Of a stretch of DNA of 64,000 nt, positions 25,897-33,888 are shown in pieces. The notes beneath the pieces are model-generated. The model was given only the letters and a program-made list of their open reading frames with translations. It searched no databases and had not been told where the DNA came from. Position 1 is the stretch's first letter; every line of letters begins with the position of its first letter. Position numbers and translations under genes: made by a program. The stretch comes from Spizellomyces punctatus DAOM BR117 (Eukaryota), in assembly GCA_000182565.2 (NCBI GenBank), contig KQ257466.1. One strand, written 5' to 3'.

Positions 25897-26196
25897 TGTG
25901 TTCGAAAATGTAGCCCATTACGAGCAACCGACGGCAGGCCAATTGATTGAATCGAATCTAGGCCTTGGTTTGACAATCGGTTATATGTGAATCCAATCAA
26001 GTATACAACCAAAATGGATCTGTGTGTCATTTGAAATGATGAATTTTACAGTTGTTATTTATTGACAGATACCAAGAATCGAATAATACAAATTGATAGA
26101 ATACAAATAATACATTTGCTTCGCCAGAAGCGAACCCAGTTTCACTACAGCACCTTTTTACACAAAAGACGTCCCAACAATATGGTTTTCCAGACT

Positions 26197-29100
26197 TCAC
26201 CGTGTTCCGATCATTGGCACGCCATGAGAACAAGCGATTTGCTCGGCCCCTTCAGCAAACTCTTCGTCCGCATCAAATTCTACTGCATCCTCGTATTGCT
26301 CATGTAAGACTTCCACCTGATAGGCATCCGAGACATTAACCTCCAGTTCAAGAACTTTCGCTACCTCAGTTTGCCATTGCCCATTCCTACGCACTACCTC
26401 GACCAACCGCTTTTCAAGCTCCTGTTCTTCGCGCCGCGATACTTCCAACTCTCGCTCCAAGATTTCTACATCCATCGGCACTCCTGCTGAATGTGGGTGT
26501 TCAGTTGACTGACCCTGCCATGACGGAGGTGGGCCTCTCAAACCAAACACCTCCCACGGAATAGGTACACCTGGAGCGACGGCACCGCTAGCCACGGCTG
26601 CGAGAAGAGGCGCTGGATCGAATACGATTGGAGCTAACTCTCCTTGACTATTATATGCGACAACATTGGTCAGCTCGATACGACCACGACCACGACCGTT
26701 GACATCCATCAATGTAGCATCCATGGGACGACCATGCTCGTCAACCAGTACTCCAACCCCAGAGGAAGCGTCCAATTCTTGGCCCTGGCCATAGTTACTA
26801 TATGTTTGCGGCGGTTGAGGAGAGCTGCTCCTTTTCTTCTTCTTCTTCAGGCCGTGCAAGGGTTGGGTGGAGTCGGACGTATTGGCCATCATCGCTGTAC
26901 TGGGCGCGTTAACAAGCATCTCCCCTGTAGACACCAATATTCGGACGGTCTCAAGCAGGCGTTGAATATGATTGTTCTCGAAAAGATTTTGTGCATCCGT
27001 GGGTGGACTGGAGGCCTCCGTAGCAGAAGGGGTTGCGAACCCAGACGACGTGACACTTTGCTCATCGTCCCCAATATTTCCATAATCGATATCACCATTG
27101 GAAGGATACTCGTCATGATCCGATTCCAGGCCATGGTCCAATCCATTGATAGCGCCAATGGCCGCCTGCGATAAAGCGTCTAACATATTCAGCCCTTGGC
27201 TAGAACCATCAGCCGCTGTGCCAGTGCCAGGTTCTTCTTCCCTCTGACGTCTACGCATTTCACGGGCTTCGCGAACTCGCTTCATCACGATCTCCACGCT
27301 GCGGCATTTCGCTTTCCAGTCTTCCGTCGTCCAACCGGCAGTGGCTGGGTTGAGTCCAACCCCAAACATCTCCGAAATTGGGGATGTCTGATCTATCGGT
27401 GTGTCTCTGGCGCTTGACCCAGAGCTAACGGTAAAGGTCGCAGTATACCGTGTGCCGGCTCCTGTGCCACTGGAAGACCCCAAACCCTTGGCCTTTTTGA
27501 GTTTCTTGCCACATACTGTCGCCCCTGGGACTCCGTGCTCTGTTGAAGAGGCTGTGGATTCACCAGCAGGATCCAAGCCGTTTCGAAACTTGTTCTGTAG
27601 CTTCGCAGCATACTCCTCGAGCTTGGTGACCTGTTCCGAAACACGCTGCATACTGCTCTTAGGGCCACCGACTTCGCCCTTACCCTTTGTCTTGCTTTTA
27701 GATTTCACTTCCTCCTCGCGACGCACTTTTTCGACCTGCGCTTCAAGTCCTTCGTACAGAAATGCCGCTGTCGTAGCCAGTCCCTCTAAAGCTTGATCAA
27801 TGAATGCATTTGCATCGATGTTCATCGCCACGCCGTTAACATTGACGTTCACGGTCCCATCGCCACACGAGTTATTCGCGTGAGCGGGTTCGGCGCCCCC
27901 AAAGGAAAAGCTTCCAAGGTTTGCAGCTAGCTGGTCAAGCTGGCCGATATTGATACCCAAAGTGCTCAAATCGAAGCTAGCAGTGGCTTCAGGAGTGCAA
28001 GTATGGCCAGGGGTTGATTTACCTTCTTTTCCTCCTGCTGGAGCTTCGGTTTTCCCCTGTACATCAATGCGGACATTGACATGACCATTCTCTCCCGCAT
28101 GGTCTACTGTGTATGAAGAGTACCCATAGCCAGCTCCAAGTTGATTCAGAGCATTCGCCAGAGCCTCCGAATCGATTTGCAAGTCAACCTCTCCTGTTGC
28201 AGCATTATGCGAAGTCAAAAACGAGGTTATATCCACCTCACCGGCGTGGCGCTGAGTTTGGCAACGTGATGGCTTCCGTGGTACGCTAATATCACGACGA
28301 GGGGGCGGCGGTTGGCTAGCCGGCACCCTTCGATCCAGACTAGCGGCCTGCTGCTGCTTCTTTTGCGGCTTTGAACTTTCGACTAGATTGGAACCTTCGG
28401 TCAACTTGCTGGATAAATTTCCCAAATTGTTTGCGGCACGGGTAGAGGGCACTCTGTCAAAGTCCAGCCCGAGGGTTTCCAACTTCTCTTTCAAGCCATT
28501 TGGAATAATGTTCGCACTTTGGGAGGCCGCAGGAGATGATTCCAGAGGTTGAGACTGTGTCTCTGACAATCGCGCCTGCAACGGTACATGCTTTGGAGCC
28601 TGGCGTACCGCAACCTTCTTCTCTTTCCGCTTTTTGGTCTTCCTACTTACTATTGCTTCGACCTCGGGTTCCACTGGAGGGGGGGTGGGAATATGATCCA
28701 CCACGTCCTTGTCTTTGGCCGCTCCAGTGACCGTGACCACTTGCGTCCCTGCTGCATCGTCGACCTTGGTCTTCGATCTCTTTTTCCTCATCTTCGGGCT
28801 GCTCAGAGGTGTCAATGGTCTACCCTTTTCGGTCGTAATTTCTTCCTGCTCGAGTGACGTATAGGCTTCTTTCTCGGTTTCCTTTTCGGCGGCTTTCTCG
28901 CTCATTTTTTCGCTTGCCGATGACACCTTCGAATCTATCTTCGAAGCCTTCCTCCGCGCGTCTCTTACTTTTCCGTCCTTCTCATTAGCTTGCGCCGAAA
29001 TGATGCCCACAGACAATGCAGTTCCATTTCGTTCCCTTTTGTCCTTCCCCGCTTGAGCCTGATCACGATCGGGAATATTAGGTGTTGCCGTTGCATCCCT

Positions 29101-32100
29101 TCGCTCGCTGTCCTTTGCTGCCTCAGAGAATGTACCAACTGGTACGTTTACTGCACTCTGTGGAGGCTTCTTGGCCGGAGTGATCGTTAAGACGCGCCTT
29201 GGTGTTGGGCTACTGATCTTCGGTGGCGGTGTTCCGGACGGCATGACAGGAGTTTGCGGCCGACTTTGTGTCGCACTACTTCCACCACTATCAGCGCCCT
29301 CTATGACCGCTTGAGACAGGTTTGGCGTCCTTGGTGAGCGCAGCACGTCCACAGAGCCAGATTGCTGATGGTCGTCTCCATCGCGTTCCCCATCAATGCC
29401 CGGACCAGACTGCGGTCCAGTCTTTCTTACCATAAAGTTGCTGCTCTTTTGTTTCCATATAGGTGGTGCAATAATTCCAGGTCCTTTCGTTCCAACGTCC
29501 CATTTACCTTCTCCTTTCCCATCCAAATTCCTTTTTTCTGACGACGCGGCTGCGTCCAACGCACTGGTATCCTCCGTATTTTCCTCCGCCTGCCATCCAC
29601 CCCCTCCTAGTCGCGTGACTAGCTGTAATTCCTCCTCATTCCGCCATTCATTCCCGGGGGTTCCGCCCTCGCCATCATCGCGGCGACCCGCTCGGCTACC
29701 AAGTCGCGCCGATCCTGTTCCCGTTGCCTCTCCCGGAGATGCTCCTGTCGGACTTCCCTTTCGCGAAGGTACTGACGAATCAAATCCTCGCGCATGATCT
29801 CCTTCGCTCGCAGAGATGCTGCCGCCCCACTCTCCAAACCTTACTTATTCCGCATGCCAAAAAGGTTGCATTTGATGGCGACAGCGATTCGTGGATTCAG
29901 ATCCAGATATGGGAGAGAGGGAGCATAAAATGAAGGAGGAAGGATTAATAAGGTATGCAAAACCAAAAACCAATCTTTCCATTAATAAACGGCGTTATCT
30001 ACAAATACTACGCAAATATTACAAGCAGCGCCACAATGATATGCTTCCGCTCGCTCGAAAAATGAAGATATCACAGACACCACATTTCTTGAGATATAGC
30101 GCTCCTCATTCATTGAATCCCATCCAAAACGGTACTCCTGCCGGTAAGGATGGGACCGATAGGACATTTCAGTGACGCAGCAAACTGGCTGCTCTTGTAT
30201 AACCGTACCCATCATCCATTTCGGTAGTCCCGACGTAATCGGGAGGGGTAGTACTCACCATTAGTGACATAACCGGGTCCGAGTGCAGAAGTTCCAGGAG
30301 GTGACGGCCACTCTTGCTGGTAATCAAGCGATTGGCCTTGACTTGGGGCAACACCCTCAAAAGTTCTAGGTCTTGTGCGCCCTTCAAACCCAGGGGCAGC
30401 ACCGCCAGCAGTAGGATTATTCAGTTTGACCGACATTATTGCCGGGTCCCGAAATGATACTTCCCCTCTGCTCTGCCCTGCACCGGCAGCAGCGCGCATC
30501 TGAAGCTCACGGATTTGGTCTTGGCGAATGTGAGTCTCTCGTAACTGGGCATCTCTAAGGAGCTGACCAATTAGTTCATCTTGAGGTTGCTGATGTGGGT
30601 GCAAGCTGTGGGGAACACCAGCGAAATGCTGTTGCTGTTGCTGCATCTGAGCCAAGCGAAGCTGTTGAAGTTGGCTTAGAAGGTGTGGCTGTACTTGCTG
30701 ATTATGCGAAAGAGAGGAAAGGTACTGCTGCTGATGGAGTAATTGTTCTTGCTGACGCATTGCAAGCGAATTGCTAGATCCATACTGCTGCTGTCCAGCA
30801 ACGCCGCGCAGGCCCCCTTGGAACGCCATTTGCTGGGTCTGAGAACGCAGAGGGAACCCCTGTCCATGGGACCACGCCTCGGCTGACGCATCTGGGACAG
30901 CTAGCTTGCTAGGACTGAAGCTTTCACCCCACCGGGCCTCGGCTTCAGACAGACTCCCACTTGCAAATGACACATTGACGTTTGGGAACATTGCTCGAAA
31001 CGACTCCTAGACAGCAATTCCGAAAGCCCTAAGCCAGACACTCTCATGTAAAGACCAATACGCAGCAGGAAACTTACCTGAACGGTTTTGGATTCTTCCT
31101 TCGGTTTCTCACCGGCGTCGCTTGCATCAAATGAACCATCCGCATCGGAAATTTGCCCATTTCCGAAAAAGCGTTCAAATCGACTGCGTTGTCCACTATC
31201 GCTCGCGCGTGAGTTTGACCTCGGTGGAGCCTGGGTTTCGTGAAATGCATCAAATCTACCGCCTTCGGCATTTGGCGTTGGAATGGCCAAGCTTGATACC
31301 CCATTCGAACCAAACCCGGAGCCCTCTTCCTGTAAAGGTACCGATATAGTCGCAAAGACAGCTAACGGATCTTCTCTGAAGGGGTCAAACGGGCCAATGT
31401 ACTTTGGATGTAAGATGAATCCCATAGCGCTAGGTGACACTGCATCGTCCAGTTCATCCTGGGAAGTTGGCTTACTAGCATTTTCTTCACTTGCACGCTT
31501 GACTACGCCAGGTGAAGATCCCTTTACAGCTTGTTGATCGCCTGACTCATCGAGTGCGCGGGATCCCATTACTTGTTCCACTTCCGGGGTACCCGGTAGG
31601 GACAGCTCCTGTTGGTTGGCCATAGTTGACGCGAACCCAGGAGGTAGATCAGACACTGCTAGTTTGTTCTTTCCCTTCGCTTTGCGATCAGCACCGAGCT
31701 GAATAGAGGCCACTTGTCCCAACTGCGAGGAAGATTTCTGTCGCAAAGGTCCTAGATTCGAATCATAGACATCGTCCATATCCATCTCGGGACTCCTCGG
31801 TGGACCAGATGCTGACGACGACATGGAAGATATACTTGCCGCTGAGTAGTGATGTGCGCCTTGCGGCCGTGCAACTGGCTTTGCCCTGTAACAGCAGGAT
31901 ACCAAACTTAGTACGACGATTTGTGAGCGGTCAAACATGAAATCACGCACCAGCTGGCGGTTGGAGGTAAAGCGCTCTCCTCCTTCTCCTCCTTCTTGCC
32001 CCCTAATGTTATTGGGAATGGTGGTGGTTTGGGATTCCGTTCTCGTAGTTGCATACGACTGGAGCACAAAAATACTTAGTAAGAGCGAATTGCGTTGTAA

Positions 32101-32995
32101 ATTCCGAGACAAGCAGGTATACCTCAGCTCCTCTTTGGCAAAAGAGTCCGCCTCTTCTCCAGGCTCATGAAGAAATTGACATCCTGGGTTTTGACACGGC
32201 TGATTCTTCAAAAAGGACGCACAATATTTCGTAGTGCCGTAAGTCGCGCTAAAAGAACATCTCTATGAGTCTGGCACGAAGGTAAACATTTCACCATTTC
32301 ACCATACCGTATGATCTTTCCATCATAAACACTTCCATCCACTGCTTCAATAGCTCGAGCGGCTTCTTCCTTTCTTGTAAAGGTAATGTACACTCCAGTG
32401 TTGGGTACTTGAGCGAGAACAGGTGTATGGCTATGGGCCCGTCGGTTGACCACCACACGAGTGATCTTGCCATACTGTCCAAAATAATCTTGTGATCGCA
32501 AGATGTCTTCGGACGCAATTTTTGGTGGCAATCCAAGCACGTAAACCAAGTTCTTTTGTACGATGCGAACATTGGCCAAATGTCTTCTGGACATTTGATC
32601 TTGCTCTTTCCTTTCCCGCTCCTTCTTTTTCTTAGCAGCCTTAATACGTGCAATTCTGTATCCGAAACGTCAACAGCATGTAGGGACTAAAATATGCTAC
32701 GACAAAGTGCTTACTCTTCGGGTGGCACCGGACGGAACTCCACGGTGTCTTCGGAATAGGGTCGACGACATGCTGGGCAAAGGCCATTCAAGTTCTCTTT
32801 GATATGATTCCAACAAAACCGACAAATCTACAATTGATAAAATGAGTATACTAGCTTGTATATTCACCACACCTGTACTTGTACGAAACTCACCTGATAA
32901 CCGCAAGGACAAGGTTTAAAGTATCGATCTGTTATGTCGATCTCCTCCATACAGAGGGGACAATCCAAGTCCTCCTCATCCGAGGACACCGACAT
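26197..32995 (-). CDS. NOT4: CCR4-NOT E3 ubiquitin ligase Not4 (RING, RRM, CCCH finger, long low-complexity C-terminus); long isoform
   Basis: MSVSSDEEDLDCPLCMEEIDITDRYFKPCPCGYQ (C4C4 RING), RRHLANVRIVQKNLVYVLGL (RRM), TYGTTKYC...CQNPGCQFLHE. The 26197..29559 ORF has no ATG start and stays open upstream to the acceptor at 29844, so it is read as the last exon. Confidence 0.88.
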
Positions 32996-33888
32996 GTCTG
33001 TAAGATTCCAAATTTGACGTCGATGTTGGAGATATATTCAAAGCGAGGTAACTGGAGCATCCAAGAAGAATTAAAGGAAAGTCAGTAAATTTCGATGGGA
33101 GAAAGGGTCGTCATCTGACAGCGATCACTTGCTGGACGGTCATACATACCAACCAAGTTTGCTGCAGGAAGCGTGTCCTGGATGTGACTACAGCCTTCTT
33201 TATAAAAAGAGACTCGTCTTCCAGTAGCAAAAATCCCAAAAAACGGTAGCTGCCTTTCAGTTTGATGAGAGCTTTGACAGATTCCCACCCTCAGATTCGT
33301 GAGGAATCAGCTCCGTCTCAAGCCAACTCTCCTCCACTAATCTTGAAAGAATGCAAGAGAGGGTACGAGCGCTGTCCTAGGCGCCAGTGGCTATGTTTTC
33401 AAAAGTGACGCAAAAGATAGATTTGCGATGGGACAAATCCAGCGCAGTACAGAAGTCCGGACGTTCTTTTTCAAAAGGAAGCTCAAAGGGGGAGGGGGGA
33501 CAACTAGCAAAGTCTGTAACACGTGAGTTGGAGCGGGGGCCACGACAGTCACCAAAAAAGGTAGTTACCATGACAATAATATTGCAACTTTGCCACTATT
33601 ACAGGTTGAAATGAATATCACAGCCACCTATGTAACAAATATAGATCAGGAGGGGATTACCTCTGAACCTTGCCCAAGTGAAACTGCGTACTATTACGAG
33701 GAAGCTAATGAGAATCTAAAGGTAACTTTTATTTGTTCAGCTGGGTTGCATAATTTCAAATCAAAAGTTCACGGGAACTTGTTAGAAATCAGCAACAATG
33801 AAAACTATCTACACGAAATGTGCAATAACAGGCTATCCCATTCCCTCCTCCATTTCCCTCCTCCATCTCATTATACATTTCCGCTACT

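What the first reader, a model, noticed from the sequence alone, without database searches (positions are those of the whole stretch)
29619..30258. NOT4 frame switch: tandem 3' splice sites 4 nt apart open two different reading frames of one exon
Seen on the minus strand: donor AAT G|GTGAGT at 30258; a pyrimidine-rich tract and a ~129-nt stretch with no AG (29974-29846); then ...AATAAG|TAAG|GTTTGGAG. The first AG (29844) gives G+TA AGG TTT (VRFGEWGG...), open without a stop to 26197, a ~1,215-aa tail. The second AG (29840) gives G+GT TTG GAG (GLESGAAASLRAKEIMREDLIRQYLREREVRQEHLRERQREQ...RRNYS*), a 73-aa charged helical tail ending at 29619 that echoes the preceding exon (QLLRDAQLRETHIRQDQIRELQMR). 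About 220 nt are therefore open and protein-like in both frames. The ~415-nt intron is far longer than the other introns here. Established: AG-exclusion zones mark distant branch points and regulated acceptors. Inference: a 4-nt splice choice toggles between short and very long Not4 ligases, or between productive and decay-prone mRNA, plausibly as autoregulation of CCR4-NOT.
Basis: partly seen in the sequence, partly recalled or inferred. Interest (0 to 1): 0.82.

Follow-up and report, generated by a model that had tools for sequence, protein, structure and literature searches.

The report
Two-frame exon downstream of chytrid NOT4
Downstream of the NOT4 ubiquitin-ligase gene of a chytrid fungus lies a stretch that can be read in two frames, one giving a conserved helical peptide and the other leading into a very long tail protein, but whether a 4-base splice choice really switches between them is still untested.

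Summary
The sequence features are all there, on the minus strand: donor G|GTGAGT at 30258, a 129-nt AG-free tract, and two AGs 4 nt apart (29844, 29840). They open a 1,215-codon frame (f1) and a 73-codon frame (f2).

The window is Spizellomyces punctatus. Its reference annotation does not splice here. MOT2/Not4 (799 aa) reads through the donor to TGA 30212, and the long ORF is a separate 1,078-aa gene.

- **RNA:** 3'-biased RNA reads pile up inside the proposed intron, which suggests polyadenylation there. No junction read was seen, but depth was too low to exclude one.
- **Frame 2:** f2 is the frame conserved as protein (78% identity to Geranomyces, and recoverable from Rhizophlyctis).
- **Frame 1:** f1 stays open and has coding-like codon usage for 137 codons with no ATG.
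- **Relatives:** homology ends exactly at the donor. Seven models from relatives join Not4 to the tail, one through f1 (…N|VRFGEW) and one through f2 (…G|LESG).
- **Statistics:** support for selection on the double frame is only moderate (p 0.017 to 0.21, depending on the null).

Verdict: a probably real, unannotated alternative exon. The 4-nt toggle is plausible (about 0.4) but unproven. The autoregulation/NMD idea has no support.

The parts
30259..32995 (-). Not4/MOT2 coding exons 1-7: 32995-32894, 32827-32715, 32655-32308, 32248-32123, 32058-31951, 31885-31078, 31006-30259. They are separated by introns of 66, 59, 59, 64, 65 and 71 nt.
   Evidence: Exact mapping of the reference protein P0006 on the window. 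RING PF14570 and RRM PF00076. PDB Not4 RING and CNOT4 RRM matches. Introns 32893-32828 and 31950-31886 are confirmed by spliced metatranscriptome contigs of run X1.
33052..33149 (-). 5'UTR intron of Not4 (98 nt, GTATGT...CAG)
   Evidence: An X1 contig skips 98 nt between 33150 and 33051. Sequence.
30253..30258 (-). Proposed phase-1 donor G|GTGAGT. It is the last point of cross-species Not4 homology.
   Evidence: Alignment A1 and the models all end or jump after ...(N/S)G at this position. Just downstream, S. 'palustris' differs from the window by a frame-changing indel (GEYYPPDYVGTTEMDDG versus GEYYPSRLRRDYRNG*).
30212..30258 (-). Read-through extension (…G EYYPSRLRRDYRNG) and stop TGA 30214-30212 of the annotated 799-aa Not4
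   Evidence: ORF 30212..31006. P0006 covers it at 100%.
29960..30025 (-). Inferred polyadenylation region inside the proposed intron (TGTAA, TATTTGTAGATAA, TTTATTAAT)
   Evidence: X8 depth is 7.5x in 29884-30157 and 4.4x in 30158-30431, against 0 in 30432-30705, in a library that is 3'-biased (82x at the tail gene's 3' end, with poly-T loose ends at 26037/26040). The motifs resemble the tail gene's 3'UTR. The cleavage site itself was not seen.
29846..29974 (-). 129-nt AG-free, CT-rich tract. It could be a polypyrimidine/distant-branch-point zone or a promoter-like CT tract.
   Evidence: It contains two short ATG-started ORFs (29871, 29855) that end exactly at the two TAAs.
29840..29847 (-). 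TAAGTAAG: two in-frame TAA stops and two AAG acceptors 4 nt apart. Exon starts at 29843 (f1) or 29839 (f2).
29819..29821 (-). Consensus-type CAG acceptor. With the phase-1 donor it also enters f2 (…N A SLRAKEIM…). It is used, with a different donor, by the S. 'palustris' model to enter f1.
   Evidence: Sequence. P0017 junction …EMDDG|ISASEGD.
29619..29840 (-). Overlap. f2 gives a 73-codon helical, charged peptide ending at TAG 29621-29619, with an internal conserved ATG at 29795. f1 reads the same DNA as a Gly/Ser/Pro-rich linker.
   Evidence: f2 is 78% identical over 55 aa to Geranomyces P0005. A +1-shifted reading of the Rhizophlyctis f1 peptide is compatible with f2 at 48 of 63 positions, and 0 of 1,000 shuffles reach its score. 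The 2 of 2 visible S. punctatus/'palustris' differences are synonymous in f2. Codon log-odds per codon: f1 +0.24, f2 +0.09, f3 -0.76.
29434..29618 (-). f1-only stretch between the f2 stop and the annotated start of the tail gene. It is open, has no ATG, and has coding-like codon usage.
   Evidence: Codon log-odds +0.15 per codon in f1 and negative in the other two frames. Open in 2.8% of shuffles. 9 of 62 residues differ from S. 'palustris' with no indel, similar to the adjacent disordered tail (15 of 150).
26197..29433 (-). Annotated 1,078-aa 'tail' gene (ATG 29433, stop 26199-26197). Mostly disordered, with four confident long helices. No Pfam family.
   Evidence: P0001 at 100% identity. Pfam: none. 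AlphaFold2 mean pLDDT 48; helices at 541-579, 592-618, 703-732 and 989-1027. Only 13 relatives among 1.84 billion representatives.
26040..26063 (-). AATAAA (26063) and poly(A) site (about 26040) of the tail-containing mRNA
   Evidence: Poly-T loose ends at 26037 and 26040 and 82x depth in 26048-26321. Motif.

Best explanation
The S. punctatus Not4 (MOT2) locus does not end where the reference annotation ends it. GTGAGT at 30258 is a real but optional donor, with three proposed outcomes.

(a) The intron is kept and the RNA is polyadenylated inside it (about 29,960-30,025). This gives the annotated 799-aa Not4, whose last 14 residues are incidental.
(b) Splicing to the second AG (29840), and perhaps to CAG 29819, enters f2. 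This appends a conserved 73-aa (or 66-aa) charged helical peptide and stops at 29619, giving a Not4 of about 857 aa.
(c) Splicing to the first AG (29844) enters f1. This reads the same 220 nt as a disordered linker and continues into the 1,215-codon tail, giving a Not4 of about 1,999 aa, like the roughly 1,800-2,300-aa Not4-tail models of other chytrids.

Shown: the sequence anatomy; f2 conservation; f1 openness and codon usage; the end of homology at the donor; fusion models in relatives; RNA depth inside the intron.
Inferred: that splicing happens at all, that both AGs are used, and the poly(A) site. No regulatory purpose (autoregulation, NMD) is shown.
For: (1) Exon boundary. Not4 homology in all relatives stops at ...(N/S)G, the donor position. 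The read-through peptides are unrelated (S. punctatus versus Geranomyces P0007). S. 'palustris' carries a frame-changing indel within about 30 nt of the donor.

(2) Coding conservation begins at the AGs, directly after in-frame TAAs and upstream of any ATG. VRFGEW is identical in Rhizophlyctis P0008 (…GPN|VRFGEW, f1) and GLESG is identical in P0022 (…GASG|LESG, f2).

(3) f2 is conserved as protein. It is 78% identical over 55 aa to Geranomyces. It is recoverable from the Rhizophlyctis f1 peptide at 48 of 63 positions (score 29; shuffle maximum 15; 0 of 1,000 reach it). Both visible S. punctatus/'palustris' changes in the overlap are f2-synonymous.

(4) f1 is open for 137 codons without an ATG. 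Its codon log-odds per codon are +0.24 in the overlap and +0.15 after it, against +0.28 for the known tail CDS. The chance of openness is 0.017 for the overlap and 0.028 for the post-overlap stretch.

(5) The annotated ATG 29433 is preceded by 12 ATGs from 29871 down. Tail models in relatives have no conserved start.

(6) Seven models join Not4 to the tail: P0004, P0008, P0014, P0023, P0017, P0019 and P0022. The two Synchytrium models come from an annotation that used RNA-seq (passages of PMC6572847). Geranomyces Not4 and tail have consecutive accession numbers on one contig.

(7) RNA depth peaks inside the intron, and the local motifs resemble the tail gene's 3'UTR.
Against: - No spliced read across 30259->29843 or 30259->29839 was listed. 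Depth was about 2x and only about 6% of run X8 was read, so this neither supports nor excludes splicing.
- The reference annotation (P0006, P0001) and the JGI models P0002, P0003 and P0020 keep the tail separate.
- Both proposed acceptors are AAG, whereas 7 of 7 known introns here use YAG. The intron would be 4-7 times longer than the others.
- With local codon choice preserved, f1 is open in 21% of permutations and f2 in 33%. The double open frame can therefore be largely compositional.
- The AG-free tract is not unusual.
- In the Geranomyces cluster, f2 runs straight into the tail (P0005, P0022), so the two-frame arrangement is not universal.
- The fusion models other than Synchytrium may be ab initio artefacts, and they use different junctions.
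- No DNA of any relative could be obtained, so conservation of the TAAGTAAG motif itself is untested.
Confidence: 0.4

Rival explanations
1. Only f2 is entered by splicing (AG 29840 or CAG 29819). Not4 then ends with the conserved helical peptide, about 857 aa. The tail is an independent gene translated from its own mRNA, and its ORF merely happens to stay open upstream. The Not4-tail fusion models in relatives are gene-prediction artefacts that exploit the open frame.
For: - f2 is the frame with protein-level conservation.
- GLESG is conserved upstream of any ATG.
- The Phlyctochytrium Not4 model P0009 ends with a comparable charged helical tail right after the homologous …YGDN. The similarity is weak: BLAST E 0.017, and 1 of 2,000 shuffles reach the score.
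- The tail is annotated separately in 3 JGI or reference genomes.
- f1 openness is not significant when local codons are kept (0.21).
Against: - f1 is open 137 codons upstream of the annotated ATG, with coding-like codon usage.
- VRFGEW is identical in Rhizophlyctis, which means the third codon positions of f2 did not change there.
- Tail models have no conserved start codon.
- 12 upstream ATGs precede ATG 29433.
- Not4-tail linkage is seen in five genera, including RNA-seq-assisted Synchytrium models.
- The P0009 similarity also scores 58 against other Q/R/E-rich parts of the same protein.
Confidence: 0.2
2. No splicing occurs here, and the reference annotation is right about two genes. Not4 ends at TGA 30212 with a roughly 250-nt 3'UTR. 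The CT-rich tract is the promoter of the next gene. That gene's mRNA first encodes the conserved 58-aa peptide from ATG 29795 (an upstream ORF or small protein), and then the tail from ATG 29433.
For: - Reference models P0006 and P0001.
- RNA depth peaks in 29884-30431, then falls to 1.8x.
- Poly(A)-like motifs lie at 30025-29960.
- The ATG at 29795 is conserved: Geranomyces models start at MSSLREKDMREGL or MREGL, and the inferred Rhizophlyctis reading allows M there.
- The acceptors are weak AAGs and the 'intron' is atypically long.
Against: - Conservation (GLESG…ASLR.KE) extends 15 codons upstream of ATG 29795, right to an in-frame TAA.
- Homology ends exactly at a consensus GTGAGT.
- The tail's main ORF would sit behind a 58-codon uORF and about 8 further ATGs.
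- f1 is open and coding-like upstream of its ATG.
- Fusion models exist in five genera.
Confidence: 0.2
3. Only f1 is entered by splicing, so Not4-tail of about 1,999 aa is the sole spliced product. The f2 peptide is made, if at all, from a separate transcript, or it is a relic of the Geranomyces-like state in which the helical peptide and the tail share one frame.
For: - In a scanning model of 3' splice-site choice (general knowledge), the first AG after the AG-free tract is the expected acceptor.
- The Rhizophlyctis model uses exactly this junction.
- f1 has the higher codon score in the overlap.
Against: - Substitutions between species fall on f1 first positions and leave f2 unchanged, so f2 is under purifying selection and must be translated.
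- f1 residues in the overlap are only 42% identical between S. punctatus and Rhizophlyctis.
Confidence: 0.1
4. One protein reads the helical peptide in f2 and then shifts to f1, either by -1 ribosomal frameshifting (for example at C CCG GGA, 29659-29653), by an unrecognised short intron, or because of an assembly indel at the C5 run. This would make S. punctatus equivalent to Geranomyces.
For: - In Geranomyces-cluster models the peptide and the tail are in one frame.
- A formal X XXY YYZ heptamer lies 12 codons before the f2 stop (sequence).
Against: - No credible donor exists in the f2 ORF (0 of 255 GT/GC-AG pairs of the right length class pass a loose donor filter).
- S. 'palustris' (an independent assembly) and Rhizophlyctis show the same frame relation.
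- DNA contig X2 matches 27912-29877 with 0 differences.
- A GGG 'YYY' triplet is not a canonical slippery site (recalled).
- This model does not explain why f1 is open upstream of the shift point.
Confidence: 0.05

Closest known systems
Tandem alternative splice sites (TASS: NAGNAG acceptors, GYNNGY donors)
   Same: Two AGs a few nucleotides apart could compete for one donor. According to passages of PMC8055015 read, frame-disrupting tandem sites exist, are often removed by NMD, and some are tissue-specific and conserved.
   Different: - The spacing is 4 nt at an acceptor. The same paper says acceptor shifts are mostly 3 nt and the 4-nt shifts are typical of donors.
- Both resulting frames stay open and look coding, one for 73 codons and one for 1,215, rather than one running into a premature stop.
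- Use of either AG is not shown here.
   Same: One stretch of DNA would be translated in two frames in different mRNA isoforms. One frame is structured and conserved, and the other is disordered and tolerant of change.
   Different: In those loci the frame is set by alternative first exons or start codons, not by a 4-nt acceptor choice. Here translation of either frame is unproven.
Not4/CNOT4/Mot2 E3 ligases of CCR4-NOT
   Same: N-terminal C4C4 RING, RRM and zinc-finger region, followed by a long, poorly conserved C-terminal part. Other eukaryotes carry short helical docking motifs in that C-terminal part. The CAF40-binding motif paper (Keskeny 2019) and the yeast Not1-binding paper (Bhaskar 2015) were seen only as entries in the reference list of PMC12746107.
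   Different: - The chytrid helical peptide and the roughly 1,100-1,200-aa tail match no Pfam family and no PDB chain.
- The tail has only 13 relatives among 1.84 billion representative proteins.
- No binding to CCR4-NOT subunits was tested.
Intronic polyadenylation / composite terminal exons (general knowledge, recalled)
   Same: An optional donor followed by a stop and an apparent poly(A) region inside the intron would give a short isoform in competition with splicing.
   Different: The poly(A) site is inferred from binned depth of one 3'-biased library. It is not mapped.

Membership tests
Not4/CNOT4/Mot2 E3 ubiquitin ligase | N-terminal C4C4 RING (PF14570) | tested here: met
   P0006 residues 12-59, E 1.4e-21. 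PDB 1e4u, 1ur6 and 5aie, E 3e-24 to 4e-18.
Not4/CNOT4/Mot2 E3 ubiquitin ligase | RRM following the RING | tested here: met
   PF00076 at residues 109-187, E 9.6e-6, above the curated cut-off. PDB 2cpi (CNOT4 RRM), E 1.4e-23.
Not4/CNOT4/Mot2 E3 ubiquitin ligase | C-terminal motif that docks on CCR4-NOT (Not1 or CAF40) | not tested
   No sequence match of the f2 peptide to any PDB chain at E up to 10. No complex prediction was run.
Tandem alternative 3' splice site | Two AG dinucleotides within a few nt downstream of one branch point/polypyrimidine tract | tested here: met
   AATAAG|TAAG|G, with the G of each AG at 29844 and 29840, after a 129-nt AG-free CT-rich tract. Both are AAG, not the YAG seen in 7 of 7 other introns of the gene.
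Tandem alternative 3' splice site | Both junctions observed in RNA | tested here: inconclusive
   No joint from 30259 was listed in any of the four runs laid. X8 depth was about 1.8x at the acceptor, and about 6% of the run was read.
Dual-coding (overlapping reading frame) exon | Both frames open over the shared DNA, beyond chance | tested here: inconclusive
   Both frames are open over 220 nt. f1 openness has p=0.017 with gene-average codon usage but 0.21 with local codons permuted. T-ending codons: 0 of 14 where they would create an f1 stop versus 11 of 39 elsewhere, Fisher p=0.022.
Dual-coding (overlapping reading frame) exon | Protein-level conservation in each frame | tested here: inconclusive
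   f2 meets it (78% to Geranomyces; Rhizophlyctis 48 of 63 compatible). f1 is only 42% identical apart from the identical VRFGEW at the exon start. It is kept open in S. punctatus, S. 'palustris' and Rhizophlyctis.
Dual-coding (overlapping reading frame) exon | Translation of both frames | not testable with these tools
   No proteomic or ribosome-profiling data were available.
AG-exclusion zone with distant branch point | Unusually long AG-free interval upstream of the 3' splice site, with a mapped distant branch point | tested here: not met
   The interval exists (129 nt), but 11 equally long or longer runs occur in this window. No CTNAY/R-type branch motif lies at the 18-28 nt distance seen in the gene's other introns. 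The nearest candidate is CTGAA, about 50 nt upstream. The branch point is unmapped.

The most novel reading that the evidence does not exclude
A 4-nt choice between two adjacent AGs switches the chytrid Not4 ligase between two C-termini encoded by the same DNA in two frames: a short, conserved helical end and a roughly 1,200-residue disordered tail with four conserved helices. On this reading the two-frame arrangement has been kept since Spizellomycetales and Rhizophlyctidales diverged. In Geranomyces an indel has merged the two frames into one protein. Intronic polyadenylation adds a third, tail-less form.
Probability: 0.3. Interest if true: 0.75.

Novelty: new variant of a known kind. Interest (0 to 1): 0.5.

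Why it matters
If both acceptors are used, this would be a clean, evolutionarily retained case of one exon translated in two frames through a minimal splice shift, in a core regulator of mRNA decay and translational quality control.

It would also mean the reference annotation of S. punctatus splits one locus into two genes and misses a conserved coding exon. The 'hypothetical' tail proteins of several chytrids would then be parts of Not4.

Even the conservative reading, an unannotated conserved C-terminal exon of Not4, corrects gene models in at least five genera.

Tried and rejected
- DNA of relatives: two scans of metagenome contigs (Not4 exon-7 alignment; tail alignment) gave pattern matches (245 and 585) but none was confirmed by tblastn. 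No relative's DNA was available, so the TAAGTAAG motif could not be compared.
Depth was too low for this to count either way. Runs X2 and X3 turned out to be unspliced DNA contigs.
- A second intron switching f2 to f1: 255 GT/GC-AG pairs of the right length class, 0 with a plausible donor. Rejected.
- An intron-hosted RNA as the reason for the long intron and the depth peak: no Rfam match at E up to 1 in 29400-30400, and the fold is not unusual (z -1.17).
- A hidden f2-type peptide in the Synchytrium and Thoreauomyces fusion models: scores were within the shuffle range. Not found.
- Homology of the f2 peptide to the C-terminus of the Phlyctochytrium Not4 model P0009: E 0.017, and 1 of 2,000 shuffles reach the score, but a score of 58 against other parts of P0009. 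Left as suggestive only.
- Function of the tail: no Pfam family and no usable ESM Atlas hit. The AlphaFold2 model has mean pLDDT 48, so no fold search was run.
- PDB search with the f2 peptide: 0 hits at E up to 10.
- Literature: 'Spizellomyces punctatus' together with 'Not4' gave 0 papers. A search on CNOT4 isoforms gave 46 papers with 8 listed. Only passages of the CCR4-NOT review were read, and those passages mention CNOT1 isoforms but no Not4 frame-switch isoform. Supplements, including the annotation methods of PMC6572847, could not be read.
Full report
**Observation**

On the minus strand the window carries a Not4/MOT2 gene.
- The reference protein P0006 (Spizellomyces punctatus DAOM BR117, 799 aa) maps exactly onto seven exons from ATG 32995.
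- It has the Not4 RING and an RRM and matches solved Not4/CNOT4 domains.
- Each frame opens immediately after its own in-frame TAA.
- The interval would be a 415- or 419-nt intron, against 59-71 nt for the gene's six coding introns and 98 nt for its 5'UTR intron.

**What the annotations say**

The reference annotation does not splice here.
- P0006 covers the read-through to TGA 30212 at 100%.
- The long ORF is a separate 1,078-aa protein (P0001) starting at ATG 29433.
- A search with the f2 peptide for longer proteins returned only Geranomyces P0005 and no S. punctatus model (1 hit among 535 candidates).

**RNA evidence**

One lay of reads was allowed.
- Run X8 is RNA of the same species label and is strongly 3'-biased. 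Depth is 82x over 26048-26321, with poly-T loose ends at 26037 and 26040, and about 0-1.3x over gene bodies.
- A second depth peak lies inside the proposed intron: 7.5x in 29884-30157 and 4.4x in 30158-30431. Depth is 0 in the next exon bin and 1.8x in 29610-29883.
- That stretch has TGTAA, TATTTGTA and TTTATTAAT motifs like the tail gene's 3'UTR, no Rfam match and no unusual fold.
- I read this as polyadenylation inside the intron, which would produce the annotated 799-aa form. The cleavage site itself was not displayed; 74 loose-end rows were not shown.
- No joint from 30259 was listed. With about two reads over the acceptor and about 6% of the run read, that says nothing either way.
- X2 and X3 are unspliced DNA contigs. 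X2 matches 27912-29877 with 0 differences.
- X1, a root metatranscriptome, confirms three upstream Not4 introns.

**Comparative evidence: the donor and the exon start**

- Not4 homology in relatives stops exactly at the donor position: …YVTN G (window), …YGAS G (Geranomyces P0007), …GYGAN G (Thoreauomyces P0004), …GFGPN (Rhizophlyctis P0008).
- The read-through peptides are unrelated. S. 'palustris' (P0017) has a frame-changing indel within about 30 nt after the donor. The sequence after GTGAGT therefore behaves as non-coding.
- Conservation resumes at the AG pair.
  - The Rhizophlyctis model reads …GPN|VRFGEW…, identical to the window's f1 start.
  - P0022, a member of a cluster at 90% identity or more with G. 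variabilis (its organism name was cut off in the listing), reads …GASG|LESGPMSSLREKDMREGL…, identical to the window's f2 start.
- In the window both frames have a stop just upstream and no ATG at that point. Coding conservation there is therefore most simply explained by splicing in from Not4 exon 7.

**Comparative evidence: which frame is selected**

- f2 is 78% identical to Geranomyces over 55 aa, with one 4-codon indel.
- The Rhizophlyctis f1 peptide, shifted by +1, is compatible with the window's f2 at 48 of 63 aligned positions. Its score is 29, against a shuffle mean of 8.2 and maximum of 15; 0 of 1,000 shuffles reach it; 30 other windows of P0008 reach at most 9.
- f1 itself is only 42% identical between the two species (27 of 65).
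- Against S. 'palustris', only 2 of 66 f1 residues differ in the overlap. Both changes sit at f1 first positions and are synonymous in f2.
- So f2 is under purifying selection as protein. Within the overlap, f1 is at most kept open.

**Evidence that f1 is nevertheless read**

- f1 is open for 137 codons upstream of the annotated ATG and contains no ATG.
- Its codon log-odds per codon are +0.24 in the overlap and +0.15 in 29618-29434. The known tail CDS scores +0.28. The other frames in 29618-29434 are negative.
- That 61-codon stretch stays open in 2.8% of shuffles.
- It differs from S. 'palustris' at 9 of 62 residues with no indel, like the neighbouring disordered tail (15 of 150).
- ATG 29433 is preceded by 12 ATGs from 29871 down.
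- Tail models in relatives start at unrelated positions.
- Of the 13 tail relatives among 1.84 billion representatives, three are joined to Not4 sequence: P0004, P0008 and P0014. Cluster members add P0017, P0019, P0022 and P0023.
- That makes seven fusion models in Thoreauomyces, Rhizophlyctis, Synchytrium (two isolates), Spizellomyces 'palustris' and the Geranomyces cluster.
- RNA-seq was used for the Synchytrium annotations (passages of PMC6572847; the methods supplement was not readable).

**Cautions**

- The statistical case for selection on the double frame depends on the null. It is 0.017 with gene-average codon usage and Fisher p 0.022 for avoidance of T-ending codons where they would create f1 stops. 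When the region's own codons are permuted, f1 is open in 21% and f2 in 33%. Purine-rich, T3-poor composition may explain much of it.
- AG-free runs of this length are not rare (11 in the window).
- Both acceptors are AAG, against YAG in 7 of 7 other introns. A consensus CAG at 29821-29819 also enters f2.
- The fusion models use different junctions, and most may be ab initio predictions.
- In the Geranomyces cluster, f2 runs in frame into the tail (P0005, P0021, P0022). Another member (P0019) reads part of the peptide region in the f1-type frame (33 of 39 compatible). The frame relation therefore differs between lineages.
- No credible second intron or assembly error explains this in the window. 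S. 'palustris' and Rhizophlyctis share the window's frame relation, and X2 DNA agrees with the window.

**The tail**

P0001 has no Pfam family. It is predicted to be mostly disordered (752 of 1,078 residues below pLDDT 50), with four confident long helices. It is confined to chytrid-like sequences.

**Verdict**

My best reading, at about 0.4, is a composite locus with three outcomes:
- retention of the intron plus intronic polyadenylation (the annotated Not4);
- the second AG, giving Not4 with the conserved helical end;
- the first AG, giving Not4 fused to the tail.

Rivals:
- f2 only, plus a separate tail gene (0.2);
- no splicing, two genes, with the peptide as an upstream ORF (0.2);
- f1 only (0.1);
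- a frameshift or assembly error (0.05).

Nothing supports or tests autoregulation or NMD.

Compared with known tandem splice sites (passages of PMC8055015), a 4-nt acceptor shift with two long open frames would be a new variant of a known kind. A search for 'Spizellomyces punctatus' with 'Not4' found no paper.

Noticed in passing
window 33052-33149 (-), also 32828-32893 and 31886-31950: Contigs of a root metatranscriptome (run X1) match the Not4 5' region with 0 differences and are spliced at a 98-nt 5'UTR intron and two coding introns. RNA indistinguishable from this strain over those exons therefore occurs in an environmental root sample.
   Followed up: no
window 26159-26168 (3'UTR of the tail mRNA): RNA reads of X8 show A>C at 26167 in 16 of 64 reads and G>C at 26168 in 5 of 65, about 30 nt after the stop codon. 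This could be a strain difference, heterozygosity or a read-end artefact. No DNA of the same culture was available to tell.
   Followed up: no
window 29871-29841 (-): Two short ATG-started ORFs (ATG 29871 with 8 codons, ATG 29855 with 4 codons) end exactly on the two TAAs of TAAGTAAG, one in each of the two frames.
   Followed up: partly
window 29433-29871 (-): The annotated start codon of the 1,078-aa tail gene is the 13th ATG counted from 29871. RNA depth does not visibly drop upstream of it (0.86x and 1.8x in the two bins above it, versus 0.84-1.28x below), which makes that start doubtful.
   Followed up: partly
proteins P0005, P0019, P0021, P0022 (Geranomyces cluster): Four models of the same locus from closely related isolates differ in how the helical peptide connects to the tail: in frame, in the other frame, or with a 24-residue gap. 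This suggests indel polymorphism or annotation instability in a Gly/Glu-rich low-complexity stretch just after the peptide.
   Followed up: partly
window 30203-30258 (-) versus P0017: S. 'palustris' carries a frame-changing indel relative to the window in the CCCCTCCC region just after the donor. Its gene model therefore uses a different donor (…GG|GTACGG) and the CAG acceptor equivalent to 29819.
   Followed up: partly
window 26197-29433 (-), protein P0001: The tail family has no Pfam family. It has four strongly conserved helices: (…NAFIDQALEGLATTAAFLYEGLEAQ…, …WTTEDWKAKCRSVE.VMKRVREAR…, …RLLETVR.LVS.GE…, …LERELE.SRREE..LE…). These look like docking motifs in a disordered scaffold. Their partners are unknown.
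   Followed up: partly
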